A DNA stretch of 64,000 nt from a virus. Its lineage: Duplodnaviria > Heunggongvirae > Uroviricota > Caudoviricetes. The translations under genes and the position numbers were made by a program. The first letter of the stretch is position 1. The number at the start of each line of letters is the position of its first letter. Under the pieces are notes generated by a model. The model did no database searches, had not been told where the DNA came from, and worked only from the letters and a program-made list of their open reading frames with translations. Shown here piece after piece: positions 11,536 through 61,592 of the stretch. The DNA lies in IMG/VR virus record IMGVR_UViG_2526164662_000021, positions 32,001 to 96,000 of that record; one strand, given 5' to 3'.

Positions 11536-11734
11536 GTATTTTTAAGTCACGAATGCTATCTTTTCGCATCATATTGACCTTTTAATCGTTCAGGCTTATA
11601 GTTCCGCCGTCGTAGCAAATTCTGCGACCGGGTTTAGCAGCCTGAATGATTGTGCGGACAGCCGCAGATATCCGATATTGCGGTATTTTTGTGTCCGTAA
11701 AACCGCGTTACGCCCAAATTATGGTGGGGCGTGA

Positions 11735-11795
11735 TGGGGAGGCTTCGGCCTGCTGGTTTCACAATCGCCAGTCTGCTAACCCCGTCACGTCCTGC
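11735..11795 (+). ncRNA. c4-like antisense RNA element (candidate)
   Basis: TTCACAATC (11758-11766) and CTGCTAACC (11773-11781) are reverse-complementary to GTTTAGCAG (11801-11809) and GATTGTGA (11832-11839, overlapping the icd RBS GAGG), in antiparallel order. Confidence 0.4.
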
Positions 11796-11849
11796 CACCT
11801 GTTTAGCAGCGGGTAGCAGGTTGTTAAACCTGATTGTGAGGCCGTAACT

Positions 11850-31399: not shown

Positions 31400-33660
31400 A
31401 AGAGCTGTGCTATGGATCTGTTTGCAGTGGAATTGAAGCCGCGAGTATTGCCTGGGAACCGTTGGGTATGCGTCCGGCGTGGTTTGCTGAAATCGAGCCT
31501 TTTCCATCTGCCGTTCTTGCGCACCGCTGGCCCCATGTCGCCAACCTTGGCGACATGACAAAACTTGCCAAAAAAGTCCTGGCTGGGGAAATCGAATCCC
31601 CTGATGTGCTCGTCGGGGGAACACCTTGTCAGGCATTCAGTATCGCTGGATTACGTGGTGGGCTTGATGATGAGCGTGGCGCGCTAACTTTAAAGTATGT
31701 GGAGCTTGCAAATGCAATTGACGACAAACGGGCTGAGTCATTTCTCAAACCGACAGTTATCGTCTGGGAAAATGTCCCAGGAGTCCTGTCATCGGCAGAT
31801 AACGCCTTCGGATGTTTCCTTGCCGGATTGGCTGGAGAAGATGCGCCATTTGAACCAGGTGATCGACCTGAATCAGGAAAAAGTAACGCGTTCTGGCGGT
31901 GGGATGGCAAAACCGGTTGCCATGCTCCAAAGTGGCCGCAGTGTGGTTGTATTTATGGACCGCAGCGAAAGGTGGCCTGGAGAATCCTTGATGCCCAATA
32001 CTTCGGAGTGGCACAACGACGCCGACGCGTGTTTGTTGTCGCAAGTGCTCGAACAGACCTCGATCCCGCAACGGTACTTTTTGAGTTCGAAGGCGTGCGC
32101 CGGAATATTGCGCCGAGCCGAAAAAAGAAGGAAATCGCTTCCGCCATTATTGCAAATGGCGCTGCAATCAGTGGCGAAAGCCTAAATCCATGCCTACACG
32201 CTGACATGCCACCCGGTATGAAATCGACGAAAGCCGTAAACGCTTTCAGGATGGCAGCATTTGGGGAATATATTGACGATGAAACCGCATCGACAGTAAA
32301 GGCAAGAGATTTTAAAGATGCCACTGACCTTGCCGTTTTTAGCAGCACAGGAGCAGGTTTTTGGTCAGAAGGGCATGGTACATTGCGGGCACGTGAGCAA
32401 GAAAGCCATGAGCATCTTGTTACATTGGCTTTTCCTGAGCGTATGAGCGGTACACAACATGCTGCAACTAAGAATACTTCACCATCTCTGATGGCTAAAA
32501 ATCCAACAGCTGTTTGCTATGAAGTAAGAAACGCAGAAGTAGCTGTCCGCCGTCTTACCCCTGTCGAATGTGAAAGGCTGCAAGGTTTTCCTGATGGGCA
32601 TACGTTGATCCCGACGGAAAAGCGTAAAAAAGTTAATTCAGATGAACTGGCATATCTTCGCAATCACTATCCAGATTTAAGCGAAGAAGAGGCCGCGATG
32701 CTTGCAGCTGACGGACCGCGTTACAAAGCGATCGGCAATAGTATGGCAATACCAGTAATGCGCTGGATTGGCGATCGGATTACTAAGGCCGTATGTCGGC
32801 AGAAAGAAGGAAGTGAAACAAAAGAGCGAAAAGTTAAACCAGCGGCAGAATTCGAACGGTCCATATTCAAATGGGCTGGTGGAAAATTTGGTGTTCTGGA
32901 ACAAATCTTTCGCTATTTGCCAGAAGGGAAGCGCCTGATCGAACCTTTTGTCGGTGGCGGAGCTGTCTTCACGAATGCCGGATACCAGGAAAATCTGCTA
33001 AATGATGTGAATGCTGACCTGATTAACTTTTACAAGACTCTGCAACGCGAGGCGCATTCACTTATCACACTGGCGCATCGGTTTTTCCAGGACTACAACA
33101 CACAGGAAGGATACCTGGCAGTACGGAATGCGTTTAACAAACAAGTCTATGATGATTTACATCGCGCAGCGGCGTTTTTGTTCCTGAACCGACATTGTTT
33201 TAACGGATTGACGCGTTACAACCAGGCCGGTGAGTTCAATGTCGGTTATGGGAAGTATAAAACTCCGTATTTCCCATTACAGGAGATGGAAGCCTTCCTC
33301 GGTGCGGAAGGGCGTTCTGAGTTTGTATGTGGTGATTTTGCTGCGGTGATTGAAGCTGCCGGAGAAGGAGATGTCATCTTCTGTGATCCGCCGTATGAAC
33401 CGCTTCCAAATACAGAGGGATTCACGAACTATTCCGGTCATGACTTTAAGTTTGAAGAGCAAAAACGCCTGGTGTCTCTGTTGACGGATGCTCATCGCCG
33501 AGGTGCAAAGGTTCTCATTACTAACAGTGGCGCGCCAAACATCAGAGAGCTTTATCATGACAATGGCTTCAGAGTGGAACCTCTTTTTGCCAGACGTTCT
33601 GTGTCTTGTAAGGGGGACACTCGAGGTGTTGCTCATGACGTCTTAGGCATATTGCTCTAA
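31396..33660 (+). CDS. dmt: Bifunctional DNA methyltransferase (C5-cytosine N-terminal half, Dam-like N6-adenine C-terminal half)
   Basis: 754 aa; PCQ motif [12 protein letters not shown] (C5-MTase); [18 protein letters not shown] and DPPY (CDPPYEP) in the C-terminal half (Dam family); same length as P1 Dmt as recalled. Confidence 0.85.
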
Positions 33661-33679
33661 TAAATTTATTAGTGTAATA
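33651..33679. promoter_or_regulatory. Two overlapping inverted C1 operator-like 17-mers
   Basis: ATTGCTCTAATAAATTT (33651-33667, 17/17) overlapping the reverse-orientation ATTACACTAATAAATTT (33663-33679). Confidence 0.6.
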
Positions 33680-34049
33680 TCGTCTCAATGAATCGTGATT
33701 TATAGAGCGATTTAGCTGTTAGCCGCGACAGGCGCGGCGGTAAGCATGGCTGGGCCTAGTCCTCCCAGACAAACCACCGAGTTGCCAGGTTGACCATGCG
33801 CCTAAGTGGCAACGCCGAAGTGCGTTACGAGCTTCCAGTTTGCCCATCTTCGGGTGGGCGTTTTTTTCAGGGTTTTCGTCATGGTTAGCGACTTTGCGGC
33901 GGTTTAGAAACTGACCATTAAAGTAAATGCAAACGATGATCTGATGATGGTAGCGGCCTAAGAAGCCAGACGCCACGGGGTATGAGTCGTCCCCCGTCAA
34001 AAAATCGACCGCAGAGTGTCCCCGTCTGTGTATTAGGGAACGGGGAGGC

Positions 34050-34129
34050 ACAACAGGTAAGGGCGCTGGTGTGATTAACCAGATGAACGAGAAGGGGCCA
34101 TCTGTTGGTCAGCGTCCTTTCCTGTTGCG
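34050..34129 (+). ncRNA. Structured element A (long imperfect inverted repeat, tRNA-associated family)
   Basis: 5-prime arm CAACAGGTAAGGG (34051-34063) pairs with CCTTTCCTGTTGCG (34116-34129), enclosing internal hairpins; arm motif shared with elements at 34487 and 35391. Confidence 0.3.
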
Positions 34130-34332
34130 TCTTCTTTTCAGCGTAACAGCGGTGCTTAACAGCACTTTGGGTACAGTTCCACGAATTTACGGGTATATCC
34201 CGTCATGCTGAAAGCGCTAATCACGCTGGAAGCCAGGGTTATGCATCCCCTGTTACCGAATTGCAGCCAGGGCGCGGTGCGCCGAAAAGCATACGGAGGT
34301 GGAAGCCCTCGCCGGAGACGTACCCGGCAAGT

Positions 34333-34408
34333 GATGGTGTAGCTCAGCGGTTAGAGCGGTTGACTGTTAATCAACGGGTCGATGGTTCAAATCCATCCAC
34401 CATCGCCA
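34333..34408 (+). tRNA. tRNA-Asn (anticodon GTT)
   Basis: Manual cloverleaf: acceptor GATGGTG/CACCATC, D-stem GCTC/GAGC, anticodon stem GTTGA/TCAAC, loop CTGTTAA, T-arm GATGG-TTCAAAT-CCATC, encoded CCA. Confidence 0.85.
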
Positions 34409-34410
34409 AT

Positions 34411-34486
34411 GCCGGTTTAGCTCAGTTGGTAGAGCGCCTGCCTTGTAAGCAGGATGTCAGCGGTTCGAGTCCGTTAACCGGCACCA
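34411..34486 (+). tRNA. tRNA-Thr (anticodon TGT)
   Basis: Manual cloverleaf: acceptor GCCGGTT/AACCGGC, anticodon stem CCTGC/GCAGG, loop CTTGTAA, T-loop TTCGAGT, encoded CCA. Confidence 0.85.
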
Positions 34487-34574
34487 ACACAACAGGTAAG
34501 GGTATTTTGCGACGTCGGAGATCGCCGTGCTTGGCAGAGGGTTCGAATCCCTACGAAGTACCCTTACCGTTGTG
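34487..34574 (+). ncRNA. tRNA-like structured element B abutting tRNA-Thr
   Basis: 16-bp stem CACAACAGGTAAGGGTA / TACCCTTACCGTTGTG encloses a canonical T-arm (AGGG-TTCGAAT-CCCT) but no standard acceptor/CCA or anticodon arm. Confidence 0.3.
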
Positions 34575-34710
34575 ATGAAGTGCAGCTCTTAGAAGCAACC
34601 AGAAGATAAGCATCTGGCTTCACAACATAAACCGCAGGAACGACCAATAAACGGTAGTCCGTATGGAGAACACCCCGTTGAGGAAGAGGCCTGGCCGGAA
34701 CCGTAACCGG

Positions 34711-34816
34711 CACTACAACGTTGAGAACACTGGCGTAACGGGGTCATATCCCAATCTACGAATAAATGTTGCGTTGCAGCGTGACAACCAGTGTTCTCAA
34801 CGTTGTGGTGAATGCA
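34711..34816 (+). ncRNA. Structured element C (23-bp inverted repeat with T-arm-like core)
   Basis: CACTACAACGTTGAGAACACTGG (34711-34733) pairs 22/23 with CCAGTGTTCTCAACGTTGTGGTG (34788-34810); core GTAACGGGGTCATATCCCAATCTAC and trailing TGAATGC shared with element D. Confidence 0.3.
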
Positions 34817-34923
34817 CAGGCTGATGTGCCGCAACTACAGTAGTGCGCGCTTTGCGGGGCTTGCTACAACCCTGTGTCGGAGTTCAGCACCGACCATCAC
34901 AATTTATTTAGAAACTGTCACCC

Positions 34924-35337
34924 ATGAGTGCGAGAACGGTAATTATGCAGAAAGAGCAGTTTGTTATTTCTTTAGTGGTTAGCACCAGTTATCAGGTCGA
35001 TAAAGTTTCGAAAGAAGATGCATCTGAAATTGATGTTGTAGATGTGTTCGGTAACGAACTCAAAATACCACTTCGTGAATTTAATGAAATAGCAGCTCCG
35101 TTGGGCAAAATTGACGGCTTGGAGGAATACCACAAGCGAATGATTATCGAACGTGCTCAGCTATGCCAGCGCATAAATAAGCTTGTTCGATTCATTGGAA
35201 CAGATAAATTCCTCACTATAGACCAGTGCAAGCAGTTGGATTTGGAAATTCAGCTCGGAAGCATGATTGATTATCGAAAAGCTCTTGATGCTCGCTTGGT
35301 CCAATTAACCAAAAACTATCCGTCAGCAAGCAGCTAA
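34924..35337 (+). CDS. Hypothetical protein
   Basis: 137-aa ORF between the structured elements; no recognisable motif. Confidence 0.4.
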   Translation: MSARTVIMQKEQFVISLVVSTSYQVDKVSKEDASEIDVVDVFGNELKIPLREFNEIAAPLGKIDGLEEYHKRMIIERAQLCQRINKLVRFIGTDKFLTIDQCKQLDLEIQLGSMIDYRKALDARLVQLTKNYPSASS

Positions 35338-35390
35338 TTATAAATTTGGGGCGGATGGTTAGTCCGCCGTTAACTCCATGAAACGGAGTA

Positions 35391-35477
35391 CGCAACAGGT
35401 AAGAGCATTCTCCTGTAACGGGTTCATATCCCAATCTACAGGTCCACCAAGAATGCTCTTTCCGTTGCGGTGAATGC
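35391..35477 (+). ncRNA. Structured element D (combines the arm motif of A/B with the core motif of C)
   Basis: CGCAACAGGTAAGAGCATTCTC pairs with GAATGCTCTTTCCGTTGCGG; core GTAACGGGTTCATATCCCAATCTAC; trailing TGAATGC. Confidence 0.3.
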
Positions 35478-35619
35478 GGCTAAGCGCACGCGGGGAAATG
35501 GTTATATCAGTCCATTCATTTCTCCTTGTTTCCCCGTCCACGGTGGATAACCAGCCAAAGGACACCGGGAGGCACCCAGCACCGCAGCTTTTTTATTCGT
35601 TAAATAATGGAGTGAGAGG

Positions 35620-35856
35620 ATGCAGAACAATCCGAACAAATGTCGAACGCTATGGGTGCGGTTATATATTTATGCCGTCCTCTGTTTGATTGTGTCACTG
35701 GTTCTGTATGTTTGGCTTTTGCCAAATATGATCTCATCTAACAGCACAATACTTGTATTGTTGGGAGTCCTTCTTGCGCTCATTTACCCGGCTTTCGCAG
35801 TAGTCTTTTTTCGTGAAAAAACCAGGAAATTAATTAATGAAAAAAACGTTGATTAG
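35620..35856 (+). CDS. Small two-TM membrane protein
   Basis: 78 aa with two hydrophobic segments; 3-prime end overlaps the start of the SPFH lipoprotein gene. Confidence 0.45.
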   Translation: MQNNPNKCRTLWVRLYIYAVLCLIVSLVLYVWLLPNMISSNSTILVLLGVLLALIYPAFAVVFFREKTRKLINEKNVD

Positions 35857-36664
35857 TGCAGCGATTATTTTGGGTTCTTTATGCCTGACCGGATGCGATC
35901 GGGTAGAGCCAGGTAACGTAGGGATCAAAGTAAATAAGCTGGGGGATGATAAAGGTATCGGTGAAGTAGTTGGCGTTGGTCGCTACTGGACAGGCTTGAA
36001 TACTGAAGTTTATATCTTCCCGACCTTTAAGCAAATGAAGACATACGATGAGCCGTTCAGCTTCCAGATGAGCGACGGAACAACCATTGGTTACCACATC
36101 GGCGTAGCCTACAAGGTTGATCCAGCAAAAGTCACAACGGTATTTCAGACCTATCGCAAAGGTGTAGATGATATTACTGATACCGATCTACGCCAGAAGG
36201 TTGCAGATGCTCTGAACCGGTTAGCCAGCAAAATGACCACCGACAAATTTATCGACGGTGGCAAATCTGAATTGCTTGATGCAGCCCTTAAAGACATTCA
36301 GGAAGAAATGACGCCAATCGGCATTCAGGTGATGAGCCTCTCTTATGTAGGTAAGCCAGAATACCCGCCAACAGTTATTGACAGTATTAACGCCAAAGTC
36401 ACGGCAAACCAAAAAACCCTGCAACGCGAGCAAGAGGTCAAACAACGTGAAGCAGAGGCCAACATGCTGCGCGCGGAAGCTGCCGGACAGGCTGATGCTA
36501 TTCGCACAAAAGCCCAGGCCGAAGCTGATGCCATTCGTTTACGTGGTGAAGCTCTGCGCCAGAACCCCGGTGTTATGGAGTTGGAAGCGATCAACAAATG
36601 GAACGGTACATTACCGCAGTATATGACCAGTAATGCCGCTGTTCCGTTTGTTCCGGTGAAATAA
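35837..36664 (+). CDS. SPFH/band-7 (prohibitin-like) domain lipoprotein
   Basis: Lipobox LCLTGC after signal peptide; SPFH-like core and C-terminal Ala/Glu-rich coiled region (QREQEVKQREAEANMLRAEAAGQADAIR). Confidence 0.6.
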   Translation: MKKTLISAAIILGSLCLTGCDRVEPGNVGIKVNKLGDDKGIGEVVGVGRYWTGLNTEVYIFPTFKQMKTYDEPFSFQMSDGTTIGYHIGVAYKVDPAKVTTVFQTYRKGVDDITDTDLRQKVADALNRLASKMTTDKFIDGGKSELLDAALKDIQEEMTPIGIQVMSLSYVGKPEYPPTVIDSINAKVTANQKTLQREQEVKQREAEANMLRAEAAGQADAIRTKAQAEADAIRLRGEALRQNPGVMELEAINKWNGTLPQYMTSNAAVPFVPVK

Positions 36665-36691
36665 AAGCGTAAGCAAAATTGGCAGTAATCC

Positions 36692-36767
36692 GGCCCTTTA
36701 GCTCAGTGGTTAGAGCTGGCGACTCATAATCGCACGGTCACCGGTTCAAGTCCGGTAGGGGCCACCA
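36692..36767 (+). tRNA. tRNA with CAT anticodon (Ile2-lysidine type or Met)
   Basis: Manual cloverleaf: acceptor GGCCCTT/AGGGGCC, D-arm GCTC-AGTGGTTA-GAGC, anticodon loop CTCATAA, T-arm ACCGG-TTCAAGT-CCGGT, encoded CCA. Confidence 0.8.
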
Positions 36768-37047
36768 TATTTGGTTGTAACACGGCGTCTGGCACATGCG
36801 TCGTTAGCGGTCTGGTGACGTTAAAAGGGGGGAACCTTGCCCCTAGCTCAGGCAACGAACCAGGTAGCCGGAATGTGCAAGCCACCGTTTGTTGTTTCTC
36901 GGGTAAAGGGATTCACCATCCTGGCGATTCGGTGTGACAGCCGGGAAGAGTCCGGCGCATTAATCCTGATTTTCTGGTGATGACTCATATCGTTAGGAGT
37001 GATTTGAGTATGCCGATTATATCTGACATTCAGCACGCCTGGGTGGA

Positions 37048-38418
37048 GTGCTAATGTCTGCATCCCCTCTTGAATCCATGCCAAATTCCCTTAGTGCAGA
37101 ACAAGCTGTACTTGGTGGCTTAATGCTTGATAACTGCCGCTGGGATGAAGTTGCAGATCGTATAGTTGCTGATGATTTTTATACCAGTGCTCATCGTGAA
37201 ATTTTCAGTGAGATGGAGAGGTTATTAAGTCATGGCAAACCGATTGATTTGATAACACTTGCTGAAGCACTTGAACAGAACGGTAAATTAGAACGCGCCG
37301 GTGGTTTTGCGTACCTTGCGGAGATGTCAAAGAACACGCCCAGCGCGGCAAATATTTGTGCTTATGCGGATATCGTTCGTGAACGCGCGGTTGTTCGTGA
37401 AATGATTTCCGTCGCAAATGAAATAGCCGAAGCTGGATATGCGCAGGATGGCAGGGGCAGCAATGAATTGCTGGATATGGCCGAGCGCCGCGTTTTTGAA
37501 ATAGCTGAAAAACGACAAAAGAGCGGTAGTGGTCCAAAAGATATCGCCAGCATTCTCGATGCAACGGTATCTCGCATAGAAGAGTTGTTTCAGCGACCAC
37601 ATGATGGTGTAACGGGGCTTGATACGGGATTTACCGATCTCAATAAGAAGACGGCAGGGCTTCAGCCGTCCGATCTCATCATTGTCGCCGCCCGCCCATC
37701 TATGGGGAAGACCACGTTTGCGATGAATCTCGTCGAAAATGCCGCAGTCCGTAACTATAAGCCCGTATTGGTTTTTAGCCTTGAGATGCCGAGCCACCAG
37801 CTGATGATGCGCTCACTGGCTTCTCTTGCACGCGTTGATCAGACTCGTATTCGAACAGGGCAACTTAACGACGAGGATTGGGCGCGGGTTTCTGGCGCAA
37901 TGGGTATTCTGTTGGACAAGCAGAATATTTTTATTGATGACTCAAGCGCCCTGACGCCGACAGAGCTACGTTCCCGCGCTCGTCGTGTTTATAAAGAAAA
38001 TGGTGGTTTGAGCATGATTATGATCGACTACCTGCAACTTATGAGCGTCCCCGAGCTGCAAGATAACCGAACGCTGGAAATTGCCGAGATTTCTCGCTCA
38101 CTGAAGGCGTTGGCGAAGGAATTACAAGTACCGGTGGTGGCATTGTCACAACTTAATCGATCGCTTGAACAGCGTGCGGACAAACGACCGGTAAATTCAG
38201 ATTTACGTGAATCAGGAGCAATTGAGCAGGACGCAGACCTGATCATGTTTCTGTATCGCGACGAAGTTTATCACCCGGATAGCGAAATGAAGGGCATTGC
38301 CGAGGTAATTATCGGAAAGCAACGAAATGGCCCAATTGGCACGGTGAGATTGGCTTTTAACGGCCAATACTCACGGTTTGATAACTATGCTGGTGCTGAC
38401 TGGCAAGAGGATTATTAA
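37048..38418 (+). CDS. ban: DnaB-family replicative DNA helicase (P1 Ban-like)
   Basis: 456-aa ORF; Walker A ARPSMGKTTFA, Walker B-like MIMIDYLQLM, DnaB motifs (SLEMP, ALSQLNRSLEQR). Confidence 0.85.
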   Translation: MLMSASPLESMPNSLSAEQAVLGGLMLDNCRWDEVADRIVADDFYTSAHREIFSEMERLLSHGKPIDLITLAEALEQNGKLERAGGFAYLAEMSKNTPSAANICAYADIVRERAVVREMISVANEIAEAGYAQDGRGSNELLDMAERRVFEIAEKRQKSGSGPKDIASILDATVSRIEELFQRPHDGVTGLDTGFTDLNKKTAGLQPSDLIIVAARPSMGKTTFAMNLVENAAVRNYKPVLVFSLEMPSHQLMMRSLASLARVDQTRIRTGQLNDEDWARVSGAMGILLDKQNIFIDDSSALTPTELRSRARRVYKENGGLSMIMIDYLQLMSVPELQDNRTLEIAEISRSLKALAKELQVPVVALSQLNRSLEQRADKRPVNSDLRESGAIEQDADLIMFLYRDEVYHPDSEMKGIAEVIIGKQRNGPIGTVRLAFNGQYSRFDNYAGADWQEDY

Positions 38419-61305: not shown

Positions 61306-61436
61306 TGTTTTTTGACTGCCGATGTTACATTGAACCTGACCTCTTGCGCCTTGAGGCATTTTCGGTTTATGCTTATCAGGCACCTCATTAAAACGGGTGC
61401 CGGGATTGGAACCCCGGATAATGTCAAAGGCGACAC

Positions 61437-61460
61437 AGACGCCAAAAGCGTCTTTTTTTG
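61437..61460 (+). terminator. Terminator/attenuator-like hairpin in leader
   Basis: AGACGC-caaaa-GCGTCT followed by TTTTTTT; an analogous hairpin plus T-run sits in the first module leader at 11662-11690. Confidence 0.45.
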
Positions 61461-61534
61461 TGTCATGCCATCGCACGGCCATACGTAGCGTTTAGCTCAG
61501 AGATCAATGGTAGTGCTGGCTGGGCTGCCGAAAG

Positions 61535-61592
61535 GCAGGCCGGTTCCCTTTGACGCCGGTAGTTCCAACCCAGTCAGTGCTACCGCCATTGA
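61535..61592 (+). ncRNA. c4-like antisense RNA element of second module (candidate)
   Basis: CCTTTGAC (61548-61555) is reverse-complementary to GTCAAAGG (61626-61633, overlapping the icd2 RBS AAGGAGG); GCTACCGC (61578-61585) pairs with GCGGTAGC (61608-61615). Confidence 0.35.

What the first reader, a model, noticed from the sequence alone, without database searches (positions are those of the whole stretch)
34050..35477. Family of repeated long-stem structured elements around the tRNA genes
Four elements (34050-34129, 34487-34574, 34711-34816, 35391-35477) form long imperfect hairpins with 12-23-bp stems and share modules. The arm CAACAGGTAAG(G/A)G occurs in three. The core GTAACGGG(G/T)TCATATCCCAATCTAC followed by TGAATGC occurs in two. 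One element combines both. They carry T-arm-like GGG-TTCAWAT-CCC cores but are not canonical tRNAs. The only ORFs called over them are short, lie antisense or in inconsistent frames, and are probably spurious.
Basis: seen in the sequence. Interest (0 to 1): 0.55.

Follow-up and report, generated by a model that had tools for sequence, protein, structure and literature searches.

The report
Modular RNA hairpins punctuating phage transcripts
The four hairpins around the P1 tRNA genes are real and belong to a widespread, unannotated family of RNA hairpins, also present in phage lambda, that most likely mark RNase III cutting points in long untranslated phage transcripts and often carry tRNA-like pieces in their loops.

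Summary
Four long imperfect hairpins lie at the stated coordinates on the + strand and share the stated motifs. They sit in the untranslated leader of the C1-controlled ban operon of a P1-like phage.

They are not a P1 oddity. They belong to a family with three parts:
- a 12-24 bp basal helix, usually ACA-CAAC...GUUG-UGU
- a hypervariable structured "cargo" of 15-85 nt
- a conserved 3' tail, GGUGAAUGCGCAGGCUGAUGCGC

The family occurs in more than 290 viral contigs, 216 phage records and at least 628 of 5,426 complete E. coli genomes, across Enterobacterales. It is found in SSU5-like phage-plasmids and in phage lambda just after tR'. Rfam 15 does not match it and RefSeq annotates nothing there.

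The stems differ in sequence but stay paired. G.U pairs outnumber A.C mismatches 144 to 6, so the structure is selected in RNA on the transcribed strand. Cargo is enriched for tRNA parts. In the window, el2 has a D-arm plus T-arm, and el3 and el4 have an initiator-tRNA-like anticodon arm rather than a T-arm.

Best explanation, inferred: these are RNase III processing or "punctuation" hairpins. This is a known kind of element, but the modular architecture appears undescribed.

Noticed in passing: a tmRNA-tag-like template, ANDDLMMVAA*, just upstream of el1.

The parts
34046..34132 (+). el1: long hairpin. Basal helix CAACAGG(U)AAGGGCGCUG / CAGCGUCCUU(U)CCUGUUG, cargo of about 41 nt, no canonical tail.
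   Evidence: -47.3 kcal/mol, z -5.96. Orthologues show C-G to U-A exchange at the basal pair and G.U to G-C changes. It occupies the same position, about 85 nt after the tag-like segment, as the frame hairpins of lambdoid contigs and SSU5-like plasmids.
34487..34576 (+). el2: hairpin starting 1 nt after the tRNA-Thr CCA. It has a 19-pair stem with one bulged A. The cargo is tRNA-like: a D-arm-like GCGA-CGUCGGAGA-UCGC plus a canonical T-arm AGGG-UUCGAAU-CCCU, with no anticodon arm.
   Evidence: The same frame carries unrelated cargo at the same position in L002, L008, L004, L009, L006 and L010. The T-arm class is enriched in the family.
34711..34810 (+). el3: hairpin with a 23-bp perfect stem. 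The cargo has a 4-5-bp helix enclosing GGG-GUCAUAU-CCC (anticodon-arm-like, CAU) and a second small hairpin.
   Evidence: -55.4 kcal/mol, z -7.16. Orthologue in the SSU5-like plasmid L005 has U.G-compatible changes in the 5' arm. The motif class is quantified.
34807..34829 (+). Tail of el3: GGUGAAUGCACAGGCUGAUGUGC, containing the small hairpin GCACA-GGCUGA-UGUGC.
   Evidence: It matches the family tail GGTGAATGCGCAGGCTGATGCGC, with a compensatory GCGCA/UGCGC to GCACA/UGUGC change.
35390..35470 (+). el4: hairpin with the frame CAACAGGUAAGAGCAUUCU / AGAAUGCUCUUUCCGUUG. Cargo is CCUGUA-AC-GGG-UUCAUAU-CCC-AAUC-UACAGG.
   Evidence: -37 kcal/mol, z -4.67. The same frame has a precise deletion of the GGG...CCC hairpin in L002, and different cargo in D6, L007, L008 and L005.
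35469..35590 (+). Tail of el4 and the downstream domain, closed by a helix between UUGCGGUG (35464-35472) and CACCGCAG (about 35580-35588). The domain resembles STnc100.
   Evidence: Rfam STnc100 scores 30.4 bits, below the gathering threshold of 47. The fold is -53.3 kcal/mol with z -4.2 and includes that closing helix. Complementarity covaries across the family.
34333..34486 (+). tRNA-Asn (GTT) at 34333-34408 and tRNA-Thr (TGT) at 34411-34486, flanked by el1 and el2.
33635..33680 (+). Pban promoters and the C1 operator Op72 (inverted repeat ATTGCTCTAATAAA / TTTATTAG...). This is the promoter that should transcribe all the elements.
   Evidence: Mapped from the P1 NC_005856 annotation. The inverted repeat is I5.
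33775..33876 (+). dicF-like region with an intrinsic terminator-like hairpin and U-tract, upstream of the elements.
   Evidence: P1 annotation and sequence.
33929..33961 (+). tmRNA-tag-like template GCAAACGATGATCTGATGATGGTAGCGGCCTAA, reading ANDDLMMVAA*. It belongs to the conserved module that precedes el1.
   Evidence: Rfam tmRNA_permuted scores 24.1 bits, below the threshold of 47. 64 homologous 10-codon tags occur in the fetched loci. The E. coli tag is ANDENYALAA.
36593..36652 (+). Possible fifth member: a 15-bp helix AACAAAUGGAACGGU / GCUGUUCCGUUUGUU followed by CCGGUGAAAU. It overlaps the 3' end of the SPFH lipoprotein ORF, 40 nt before tRNA-Met (CAT).
   Evidence: The z-score is only -2.3, so membership is uncertain.

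Best explanation
The four elements are copies of a modular RNA hairpin found in the transcripts of temperate enterobacterial phages.

Each unit has three parts:
- a long basal helix of about two helical turns, with a conserved base ACA...UGU and a defect 5-8 bp up
- an exchangeable, structured cargo
- usually a 3' tail, GGUGAAU plus a small hairpin

In this P1-like genome they are transcribed from the C1-repressed Pban promoter as part of a leader of about 3.4 kb. That leader is mostly untranslated and holds, in order:
- the dicF-like RNA
- the tag-like module
- el1
- tRNA-Asn and tRNA-Thr
- el2
- el3
- a moron ORF
- el4
- two moron ORFs
- tRNA-Met
- ban

Proposed mechanism (inferred, not shown): host RNase III cuts both strands of each basal helix. 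This has four consequences.
1. The polycistronic RNA is split into separate tRNA, sRNA and mRNA segments. For el2, the cut frees the 3' side of tRNA-Thr for exonucleolytic trimming. Where a tRNA follows an element, RNase P then has a short leader to remove.
2. The capped upper stem plus cargo is released as a small stable RNA.
3. The freed 3'-arm remnant, GUUGYGGUG, re-pairs with a complementary CACCRCAAC segment 45-155 nt downstream. This closes a structured 5' domain that would protect the downstream RNA.
4. Cargo is free to vary and is exchanged between phages by recombination within the conserved arms.

Shown here: the structure, the strand, the family, the distribution and the cargo classes. 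Inferred: RNase III cleavage, refolding and stabilisation.
For: Structure and strand:
- z-scores of -4.7 to -7.2 for the four elements.
- In a tail-anchored set that does not pre-select stems, 93 of 141 tails are preceded by a hairpin of at least 12 pairs. The 82 distinct hairpins have median 17 pairs (range 12-24) and about 40 different 5'-arm sequences.
- G.U pairs 144 against A.C mismatches 6.
- The basal five pairs show compensatory double changes in 1-11 of 39 sequences.
- All 72 elements with a tRNA within 2 kb are on the same strand as it. Downstream ORFs are co-directional 193 to 71.
- Element lengths are not multiples of 3.

Context:
- 29 of 308 elements lie within 10 nt of a tRNA gene.
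- Others lie right after the late terminator tR' in lambdoid phages, including lambda 44,790-44,861.
- Others lie at the head of early-left operons and moron transcripts.

Helix length of about 20 bp fits the RNase III requirement (established knowledge).

Precedents, known here only from titles:
- Daniels et al. [quoted passage not shown] Downstream closing helix:
- Runs of at least 9 bp in 111 of 196 contexts, against 52 in shuffled and 62 in upstream controls.
- Covarying pairs include GUGGUG/CACCAC, GUGCUG/CAGCAC and GUGAUG/CAUCAC.
- It is predicted in the minimum-energy fold of the isolated downstream modules of el2, el3 and el4.
- It corresponds to the outer helix of the Rfam STnc100 model.

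Cargo exchange with breakpoints inside the arms.

The region is dispensable for P1 plaque formation in the laboratory (PMC10695390). That fits an accessory RNA-processing role.
Against: - No cleavage data were available. I could not read Daniels 1988, so I cannot confirm that the lambda RNase III sites map to this hairpin.
- RNase III has little sequence specificity. It does not explain why the arm sequence CAACAGGUAAGAGCAUUG / CAGUGCUCUUUCCGUUG and the tail are nearly identical across unrelated phages. That may instead reflect horizontal spread or another sequence-specific partner.
- If cargo were irrelevant, it should often shrink to a tetraloop. Yet every member keeps a structured cargo of at least 15 nt, and tRNA-like parts are enriched 38- to 67-fold over shuffles.
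- The closing-helix statistic has a high background, because the G/U-rich probe pairs promiscuously.
- Two of the three isolated downstream modules are not more stable than shuffles, with z about -1.
- About 15% of elements appear antisense to both flanking ORFs in a crude ORF-based test.
Confidence: 0.5

Rival explanations
1. The cargo is the functional part. The hairpins are scaffolds that present or release mimics of tRNA parts: an initiator-tRNA anticodon arm in el3 and el4, and a D-arm plus T-arm elbow in el2. These would act as decoys or competitors for proteins that bind or cut tRNAs, such as anticodon nucleases (for example VapC, which cleaves tRNA-fMet), colicins, or modification and processing enzymes. 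The arrangement would resemble bacterial Y-RNA-like YrlA RNAs.
For: - T-arm-like hairpins occur in 33 of 271 distinct cargos against 0.87 expected. fMet-like anticodon arms occur in 16 of 271 against 0.24 expected.
- L132 cargo shares 14 identical nucleotides with the metZ anticodon arm.
- GGG/CCC covaries with GGC/GCC around the CAU loop.
- Cargo is hypervariable between close relatives, as expected in an arms race.
- The elements co-occur with real phage tRNA genes and a tmRNA-tag-like segment.
Against: - About 80% of cargos show no recognisable tRNA part.
- The position of the T-arm relative to the stem is not fixed.
- The GGG...CCC hairpin is cleanly deleted in one el4 orthologue.
- The Rfam YrlA and tRNA models do not match the elements.
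- The VapC link rests on memory of the literature, not on any test here.
Confidence: 0.17
2. The elements act at the DNA level. They would be conserved inverted-repeat 'linker' or mobile elements (MITE-like or integron attC-like) that promote the exchange of gene or tRNA cassettes between phages. The RNA hairpin would be a by-product.
For: - They sit at module boundaries: Q/lysis, repressor/early-left, between tRNAs and morons.
- Cargo and neighbouring cassettes differ between otherwise near-identical genomes, with breakpoints inside the arms.
- The base (R)CACAAC...GTTGTG(R) loosely resembles attC R''/R' (RYYYAAC/GTTRRRY) with one bulged base.
- A site-specific integrase lies 1.5-2 kb away in the SSU5-like plasmids.
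Against: - G.U to A.C asymmetry of 144 to 6 and strict co-orientation with tRNAs, 72 of 72. Both point to selection on the transcript.
- The arms of different members differ in sequence yet stay paired. That is unlike the terminal repeats recognised by a single transposase.
- The attC consensus fails at 1-2 of the 4 degenerate positions on each side.
- Most phages carry a single copy and no integron integrase. No target-site duplication was seen.
- The conserved tail lies on one side only.
Confidence: 0.1
3. The elements are cis-acting antitermination or anti-Rho signals for long untranslated leaders. They would be put-like RNAs acting on RNA polymerase, or nut/rrn-like signals (a boxA-like UGCUCUUU plus a small hairpin).
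For: - They lie immediately downstream of terminators or at the start of long operons: lambda tR', the P1 dicF-like terminator, early-left leaders.
- The 3' arm of the commonest frame contains UGCUCUU(U/A), identical to the core of boxA as I recall it, followed 14 nt later by a 5-bp hairpin.
- A leader of more than 1.3 kb without translation should need protection from Rho.
Against: - The boxA-like octamer is buried in a 20-bp helix. Many family members with other stem sequences lack it.
- Elements also occur between tRNA genes and next to head or terminase genes.
- The lambda late operon already uses Q.
- I made no comparison with real put sequences.
Confidence: 0.08
4. The elements are decayed tRNA genes (pseudo-tRNAs) left over from a larger tRNA array.
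For: - el2 has a T-arm and a D-arm-like hairpin and sits in the array directly after tRNA-Thr.
- Relatives carry extra tRNAs at neighbouring positions, tRNA-Tyr and a tRNA-Ser-like gene.
Against: - The long stems, not the tRNA-like parts, are what is conserved.
- Only 12% of cargos have a T-arm.
- None of 68 long-cargo members is called a tRNA by ARAGORN.
- The same frame occurs in phages with no tRNA genes nearby.
Confidence: 0.03

Closest known systems
RNase III processing sites of the phage lambda late transcript (Daniels, Subbarao, Blattner and Lozeron 1988, Virology 167:568; title only, cited in PMC7547250)
   Same: Lambda carries a member of this family (44,790-44,861) 5-10 nt downstream of tR' in the Q-dependent late leader. 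It is the only helix of about 20 bp in that leader. It is in the same transcript in which RNase III sites were reported.
   Different: I could not read the paper, so identity of the sites with this hairpin is unverified. As far as I could find, nothing in that work treats the hairpin as a member of a multi-phage family with exchangeable cargo and a conserved tail.
T7/T3 early-region RNase III sites (R0.3-R1.3) and the rRNA-operon processing stalks
   Same: Both are repeated hairpins or long helices that punctuate a polycistronic transcript. They share short sequence motifs and are cut by host RNase III into discrete stable RNAs (established knowledge).
   Different: T7 sites are shorter two-part stems with an internal loop and a small apical loop. 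Here the helices are about 17-24 bp with a large, variable, structured cargo and a conserved single-sided tail. No sequence similarity was tested.
RNase III hairpin downstream of metY (tRNA-fMet2) in the E. coli metY-nusA-infB operon (Regnier and Grunberg-Manago 1989; title cited in PMC5371410)
   Same: A tRNA gene at the head of an mRNA operon is followed by an RNase III-cleaved hairpin that releases the tRNA. This matches the geometry of tRNA-Thr and el2.
   Different: It is a host, single-copy element. No sequence relationship was examined.
STnc100 / PasD prophage sRNAs (Rfam RF02076; bioRxiv 10.64898/2026.05.13.724894)
   Same: Window 35466-35586 starts in the 3' arm and tail of el4 and aligns to STnc100 model positions 31-147, including the outer helix UGGUG/CACCA and the CGGGAGGCACCC hairpin. 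Both are prophage leader-derived RNAs.
   Different: The score of 30.4 bits is below the gathering threshold of 47. The hairpins themselves are not part of the match. STnc100 was not found next to other family members that were tested.
Bacterial Y-RNA-like YrlA RNAs
   Same: Both have a long stem formed by the two ends, with a conserved bulge, plus a variable domain that mimics tRNA (T-arm, D-arm). Both are found near tRNA genes and in phages (from memory of Chen et al. 2014).
   Different: Rfam YrlA gives no match on the elements; its 19.9-bit hit lies over the real tRNAs. The order of tRNA parts differs. E. coli lacks the Ro/Rsr partner. Most cargos are not tRNA-like.
Integron attC sites
   Same: Both are imperfect palindromes of 55-140 nt with conserved ends (...AAC / GTT...), a bulged base and a variable centre. 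Both flank exchangeable cassettes.
   Different: The consensus is not met, there is no IntI, and most phages carry single copies. The strand asymmetry fits RNA, and the conserved tail lies on one side only.

Membership tests
RNase III substrate / processing hairpin | A double-stranded helix of about two turns (roughly 20 bp or more) in a transcript | tested here: met
   Outer helices have 16-23 pairs in el1-el4. Family median is 17, range 12-24. They lie on the strand co-oriented with the tRNAs and with Pban.
RNase III substrate / processing hairpin | Staggered double-strand cleavage in vivo or in vitro that depends on rnc | not testable with these tools
   Only the titles of Daniels 1988 (lambda late RNA) and Regnier 1989 (metY) were accessible.
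RNase III substrate / processing hairpin | Absence of antideterminant base pairs in the proximal and distal boxes | not tested
   The cleavage positions are unknown, so the boxes cannot be placed.
tRNA / tRNA pseudogene | A cloverleaf with acceptor, D, anticodon and T arms, recognised by tRNA models | tested here: not met
   ARAGORN and Rfam RF00005 find only Asn, Thr and Met in the window. None of 68 long-cargo members is called a tRNA.
Rfam families (any of 4,227, including YrlA, STnc100, tmRNA, C4) | A score at or above the curated gathering threshold | tested here: not met
   No hit above threshold on any hairpin in the window or in 13 other loci. Sub-threshold hits are miRNA-precursor models, that is, generic long hairpins.
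REP / ERIC / IS-derived repeats | Many dispersed chromosomal copies outside mobile elements, or similarity to an IS end | tested here: not met
   There are 1-3 places per E. coli genome (median 1) in 628 of 5,426 genomes, in prophage contexts. None was found in the two K-12 prophage regions inspected, Qin and CPS-53. IS ends were not compared explicitly.
Integron attC | R'' RYYYAAC and R' GTTRRRY boxes, L boxes with extrahelical bases, arrays of cassettes, and an IntI integrase | tested here: not met
   GCACAAC/GTTGTGG fails at 1-2 degenerate positions. Most phages have single copies. No IntI is nearby in P1. The G.U bias indicates RNA. The SSU5 integrase type was not examined.
nut / rrn antitermination site | Single-stranded boxA (YGCUCUUUA...) next to a boxB hairpin, acting with Nus factors or N | tested here: inconclusive
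   UGCUCUU(U/A) is present in the commonest 3' arm, but it is base-paired there and absent from many members. The boxA consensus is recalled from memory.
tmRNA (for the neighbouring tag-like segment) | A tRNA-like domain with an alanine-accepting stem plus a tag reading frame with a resume codon | tested here: not met
   ARAGORN finds no tmRNA. Rfam tmRNA models score 14-24 bits, below threshold, and cover only the tag region. nhmmer similarity to E. coli ssrA is limited to about 50 nt, E 0.1-0.9. Only the tag-like frame is present.

The most novel reading that the evidence does not exclude
The leaders of temperate enterobacterial phages (P1, SSU5-like, lambdoid) may encode a toolkit of translation-RNA mimics, carried on a common hairpin scaffold and released by RNase III. 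The toolkit would include initiator-tRNA anticodon arms, tRNA elbows (D-arm plus T-arm), and a tmRNA-like tag template (AN[DE][DE]xx[LM][AV][AV]A*). These would act as decoys against tRNA-targeting toxins and defence nucleases, or would manipulate trans-translation and ClpXP. The hypervariable cargo would be the record of an arms race.
Probability: 0.12. Interest if true: 0.85.

Novelty: new variant of a known kind. Interest (0 to 1): 0.6.

Why it matters
If the reading is right:
- P1's ban leader, and the textbook lambda late leader, contain an unannotated, conserved RNA module.
- This module organises how long phage transcripts are cut into tRNAs, small RNAs and mRNAs.
- The annotated P1 genes plp and upl are probably not genes.
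- The family gives a handle on how moron and tRNA cassettes are exchanged between unrelated phages.
- Its frequent tRNA-part cargos, and the neighbouring tmRNA-tag-like segment, make testable the idea that phages deploy RNA mimics of the translation apparatus.
- It would be a straightforward new entry for Rfam and would remove spurious ORF calls from hundreds of phage and prophage annotations.

Tried and rejected
- **Coding.** The conserved arm and tail could read QQVRAL.../...QCSFRCGECAG*. However, element lengths fall in all three frames, and the tail-hairpin covariation changes the amino acids. Rejected.
- **Antisense targets.** No cargo of el1-el4 has a complementary or direct match in the 64-kb window longer than shuffled controls give. 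The only exception is the shared el3/el4 core.
- **Known RNA families.** Rfam at gathering and E-value thresholds gave only generic miRNA-precursor look-alikes.
- **Literature by sequence.** No paper prints the arm, the tail or the tag peptides. P1-specific searches found only that the region is non-essential. The P1 genome paper and Daniels 1988 are not held.
- **K-12 copies.** The Qin and CPS-53 prophage regions of MG1655 lack the element, so K-12 transcriptome resources cannot be used.
- **Whole tRNAs inside the frame.** A scan for longer cargos found 68 more members but no tRNA.
- **Hammerhead-like reading** of CUGAUG...GAAA in the tail. There is no stem II and no Rfam ribozyme hit. Rejected.
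- **RNAalifold on cargo-trimmed arms.** It recovered only the basal pairs, because members differ in bulge register. I therefore relied on per-sequence folds.
- **Covariance model.** I did not build one, because variable cargo and register shifts make a single consensus structure unreliable.
Full report
**Where we are.** The window is a P1-like (Punavirus) genome. The region 33,600-37,050 aligns at 94-99% to P1, P7, D6, RCS47 and many P1-like plasmids.

In the P1 reference annotation this stretch is the leader of the ban operon. In order, it contains:
- the stop codon of dmt
- the C1-controlled Pban promoters and operator Op72 (window about 33,635-33,680)
- a 'dicF-like region' (33,775-33,876)
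- trnA (Asn) and trnT (Thr)
- two reverse-strand ORFs, plp and upl
- accessory genes
- trnI (CAT)
- ban

ARAGORN and Rfam find tRNA-Asn at 34,333-34,408, tRNA-Thr at 34,411-34,486 and tRNA-Met(CAT) at 36,692-36,767. Everything discussed here lies on the + strand, downstream of Pban and upstream of ban at 37,048.

| Element | Coordinates | Energy (kcal/mol) | z-score |
|---|---|---|---|
| el1 | 34,046-34,132 | -47.3 | -5.96 |
| el2 | 34,487-34,576 | -41.7 | -5.35 |
| el3 | 34,711-34,810 | -55.4 | -7.16 |
| el4 | 35,390-35,470 | -37.0 | -4.67 |

- The energies and z-scores are for the + strand folded as RNA. None of 200 dinucleotide shuffles folds as well for any of the four. The reverse strand folds worse for el1 to el3.
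- CAACAGGTAAG occurs exactly three times, with 0.84 hits expected even allowing one mismatch.
- The 25-nt core occurs twice.
- GTTGYGGTGAATGC follows the 3' arms of el3 and el4.
- Short 12-bp helices alone would not be remarkable in this window. The full helices and shared motifs are.

**The overlapping ORFs are not maintained.** The P1 plp frame has an internal stop here, and upl is split by an insertion. Neither has a Pfam or PHROG match. The + strand ORF at 34,924-35,337 between el3 and el4 is a genuine phage protein family (phrog_15270, PF21825).

**The elements are a family, and a very large one.** Every P1-like genome examined has the same set of hairpins. So do the unrelated SSU5-like phage-plasmids of about 110 kb, which carry 4-6 of them in their own tRNA region.

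A pattern built from the commonest arm pair (CAACAGGTAAG...CTTWCCGTTG) gave:
- 68 more loci with longer interiors
- hits in Serratia, Klebsiella, Pectobacterium, Pantoea, Rahnella, Kluyvera, Citrobacter, Erwinia, Enterobacter, Brenneria and other Enterobacterales

A 41-nt probe for the 3' arm plus tail hit 628 of 5,426 complete E. coli genomes. Almost all hits are chromosomal, the median is one copy per genome, and RefSeq annotates nothing under the matches. A 99-nt probe hit 216 GenBank phage records, again annotated as 'none' or 'hypothetical protein'.

Phage lambda itself carries a copy at 44,790-44,861, beginning 5-10 nt after the U-tract of the late terminator tR'. Several 'non-enterobacterial' genome hits are 48.4-48.5-kb low-coverage contigs and look like lambda contamination.

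No Rfam family reaches threshold on any member. No paper in the library prints the arm, tail or tag sequences.

**Anatomy of a unit.**
- The base is usually (A/G)CA-CAAC...GUUG-UG(U/G).
- A defect lies 5-8 bp up: a bulged A, a U.U, or a C.A.
- The helix continues to a total of 12-24 pairs, median 17.
- The interior ('cargo') is 15-85 nt and usually contains its own small hairpins.
- After the 3' arm comes (G)GUGAAU and a 5-bp hairpin, GCGCA-GGCUGA-UGCGC. el3 has the covarying version GCACA/UGUGC. el4 has GCG-GCUAAG-CGC.

To avoid circularity, I collected members by the tail alone. 93 of 141 tails are directly preceded by a long hairpin. The 82 distinct hairpins use about 40 different 5'-arm sequences, for example ACACATGAGAGCGC..., AACAAGAAAGGGTT..., ACAGGAGGGGCGAT... 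and ATCATAAAATAGCC..., each with a matching 3' arm.

In these helices there are 144 G.U pairs against 6 A.C mismatches. A DNA-level palindrome would show the two in similar numbers. The five basal pairs show double, pair-preserving changes in 1-11 of 39 sequences.

Among P1-type orthologues of el1, the basal C-G is replaced by U-A, with U.G and C.A intermediates. A G.U also becomes G-C.

All 72 elements with a tRNA within 2 kb share its strand. Downstream ORFs are co-directional 193 to 71 in a crude test. Lengths fall in all three reading frames.

I conclude that a structure in the transcript of the tail-bearing strand is under selection.

**Context.** Members occur in these places:
- directly abutting tRNA genes. 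el2 starts 1 nt after the CCA of tRNA-Thr, and in L016 and L076 a tRNA-Arg starts 1-2 nt after GUUGUG. In all, 29 of 308 lie within 10 nt of a tRNA.
- immediately after the late terminator, between Q and the holin gene, in lambdoid phages
- at the head of early-left operons downstream of the repressor gene
- in the 5' leaders of moron genes that have their own promoter
- near head and terminase genes

The leaders are mosaics of a small set of recurring RNA modules. The stretch after tRNA-Met in the window (about 36,770-36,950) recurs upstream of frame hairpins in other phages.

**Cargo.** Cargo is exchanged between close relatives, with the breakpoints inside the arms.
- el2 has tRNA-like cargo in the window, P1, D6 and L007. 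It has five other unrelated cargos at the same position in L002/L008, L004/L009, L006 and L010.
- el4 has its GGG...CCC hairpin precisely deleted in L002. It has different cargo in D6, L007, L008 and L005.
- The D6 cargo is a sequence that in lambda lies just downstream of the element.

Among 271 distinct members:
- 33 contain a hairpin of at least 4 bp closed over a T-loop consensus (UYCRANN), against 0.87 in shuffles.
- 16 contain three G/C pairs closed over N-Y-CAU-R-N, against 0.24 in shuffles.

The second class includes el3 (GGG-GUCAUAU-CCC) and el4 (GGG-UUCAUAU-CCC). A relative (L132) shares 14 contiguous nucleotides, CGGGCUCAUAACCC, with the anticodon arm of E. coli initiator tRNA metZ. 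The three G-C pairs next to a CAU loop are the hallmark of initiator tRNA (established knowledge). Variants covary, for example GGC-YUCAUAA-GCC.

el2 does contain a canonical T-arm (AGGG-UUCGAAU-CCCU), preceded by a D-arm-like hairpin, with no anticodon arm. About four cargos in five show no tRNA-like part. No cargo of el1-el4 has a complementary target elsewhere in the window.

**What it most likely does.** A near-perfect helix of about 20 bp in an E. coli transcript is a substrate for RNase III (established knowledge). Repeated, motif-sharing RNase III hairpins that punctuate a polycistronic phage RNA are classical in T7.

Two titles in reference lists bear directly on this family:
- Daniels et al. 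[quoted passage not shown] In the lambda late leader, this element is the only helix of that length.
- Regnier and Grunberg-Manago 1989 reported that RNase III cleavage in the metY-nusA-infB transcript 'releases the tRNA'. That is the same geometry as tRNA-Thr and el2.

I could read neither paper, so the identification of the lambda sites with the hairpin is a lead, not a result.

A further feature fits a processing model. The end of the 3' arm plus the start of the tail (GUUGYGGUG) is complementary to a segment 45-155 nt downstream (CACCRCAAC), with covariation (GG/CC, CU/AG, AU/AU).
- Runs of at least 9 bp occur in 111 of 196 contexts, against 52-62 in controls.
- When the downstream modules of el2, el3 and el4 are folded without the 5' arm, this closing helix is in the minimum-energy structure.
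- It is the outer helix of the Rfam STnc100 model, to which the region after el4 aligns weakly.

My proposed sequence of events is therefore:
1. The hairpin forms co-transcriptionally.
2. RNase III cuts it.
3. The cap plus cargo is released.
4. The 3' remnant re-pairs downstream and sequesters the new 5' end.
5. Upstream tRNAs are trimmed.

All five steps are inferred.

**What this does not explain.** RNase III does not need the near-identical arm and tail sequences seen across unrelated phages. A neutral cargo should often be lost. The enrichment of tRNA parts is strong. I therefore keep several rivals:
- Cargo function, as tRNA-part decoys or mimics on a Y-RNA-like scaffold. This is the main rival.
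- DNA-level linker or mobile elements. This is weakened by the G.U asymmetry and the variable arms.
- Antitermination signals. The boxA-like UGCUCUUU is buried in the helix and absent from many members.
- Decayed tRNAs. The family data argue strongly against this.

P1 CRISPRi data list trnT, plp, upl, tciABC, trnI and ban as non-essential for plaque formation (PMC10695390). So any function is accessory under laboratory conditions.

**Noticed on the way.** About 85 nt upstream of el1 lies GCAAACGATGATCTGATGATGGTAGCGGCCTAA (33,929-33,961), which reads ANDDLMMVAA*. The E. coli tmRNA tag is ANDENYALAA.
- Rfam's permuted-tmRNA model aligns to it at 24 bits, below threshold.
- There is no canonical start codon in frame.
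- 64 homologous 10-codon versions occur in the fetched loci, in P1-like, SSU5-like and lambdoid genomes. Examples are ANEEMYLAVA, ANEEVYLAVA, ANDEQFLAVA, ANDNQYLAVA and ANDDLMLAAA.
- These versions show some synonymous differences and always lie about 85 nt upstream of a frame hairpin.
- No tRNA-like domain of a tmRNA is detectable. An overlapping +2 frame with AUG/GUG also exists.
- Whether this is a relic, a mimic or a coincidence is open.

**Verdict.** The finding is real and larger than reported. It is a new, apparently undescribed variant (frame, cargo and tail module) of a known kind of element, the phage RNase III processing hairpin. There is a modest chance that the cargo and the tag-like neighbour point to something more unusual.

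Noticed in passing
window 33929-33961 (module about 33880-34045): A tmRNA-tag-like template, ANDDLMMVAA*, with no canonical start codon. It gets a sub-threshold Rfam tmRNA_permuted hit. 64 homologous 10-codon tags (AN[DE][DE]xx[LM][AV][AV]A*) occur in P1-like, SSU5-like and lambdoid loci, always about 85 nt upstream of a frame hairpin. No tRNA-like domain was found.
   Followed up: partly
window 35466-35586: A domain resembling the prophage sRNA STnc100 (30.4 bits, gathering threshold 47). It starts in the 3' arm and tail of el4 and ends just before the moron ORF at 35620. It contains a CCGGGAGGCACCC hairpin. The motif GGAGGCAC also precedes el1 (34044-34051).
   Followed up: partly
window 34802-34903, 35464-35588, 34569-34626: The end of each 3' arm plus the tail start (GUUGYGRUG) is complementary to a segment 45-125 nt downstream. 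This pairing excludes the basal pairs of the hairpin and covaries across the family. It may be a refolding or switch element.
   Followed up: partly
window 36593-36652: A 15-bp hairpin with the family-like base AACAA.../...UUGUU, followed by CCGGUGAAAU. It overlaps the last codons of the SPFH/Band-7 lipoprotein ORF (35837-36664) just upstream of tRNA-Met(CAT). It may be a fifth member.
   Followed up: partly
window 36770-36950; L132 3250-3400: The leader between tRNA-Met and ban shares a module (UUUGGUUGUAACACGGCG...GUAGCCGGAAUGUGCAAGCC...GGUGUGACA..GGGAAGAG) with the early-left leaders of e14/CPS-53-like prophages. The same module lies upstream of frame hairpins in many viral contigs.
   Followed up: no
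window 11596-11802 and 61380-61590: Two C4 antisense RNA genes (77 and 70 bits). One is preceded by its a1/b1 target element and the other by an isrK-like RNA. This means two immunity-type antisense RNA loci in one 64-kb window.
   Followed up: no
window 34457-34834 (- strand) and 34835-35390: The P1 genes plp and upl are annotated antisense over trnT, el2, el3 and the spacer. plp has an internal stop in this window and upl is interrupted. They are probably annotation artefacts in P1 as well.
   Followed up: yes
window 34924-36664 compared with P1 (L001 2930-3815): Relative to P1, this genome has an extra ORF between el3 and el4 (137 aa, phrog_15270, crAss001_48-related). It also has a small membrane protein plus an SPFH lipoprotein in place of tciABC. 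So cassettes between the hairpins differ between relatives.
   Followed up: partly
3' arms of el4 (35451-35463) and of most family members; window 34587-34596: UGCUCUU(U/A) in the 3' arm is identical to the core of boxA of rrn/lambda nut sites, as I recall it. An AGCUCUUAG also lies single-stranded just after el2. Any significance is untested.
   Followed up: no
Genome-contig loci L312, L345, L356, L335, L342 and others: Hits in Pseudomonas, Shewanella, Oceanobacillus, Neobacillus and similar assemblies lie on 48.4-48.5-kb or tiny low-coverage contigs at lambda-like coordinates. These contigs are almost certainly phage lambda contamination in those assemblies.
   Followed up: no
L003 (D6) 2607-2693; L004-L006, L014: An 87-nt type-II tRNA with anticodon UGA ('tRNA-Ser', not called by tRNAscan according to the D6 record) recurs in D6 and SSU5-like genomes. 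It is preceded by CCACCACAAC and followed directly by a family hairpin.
   Followed up: no
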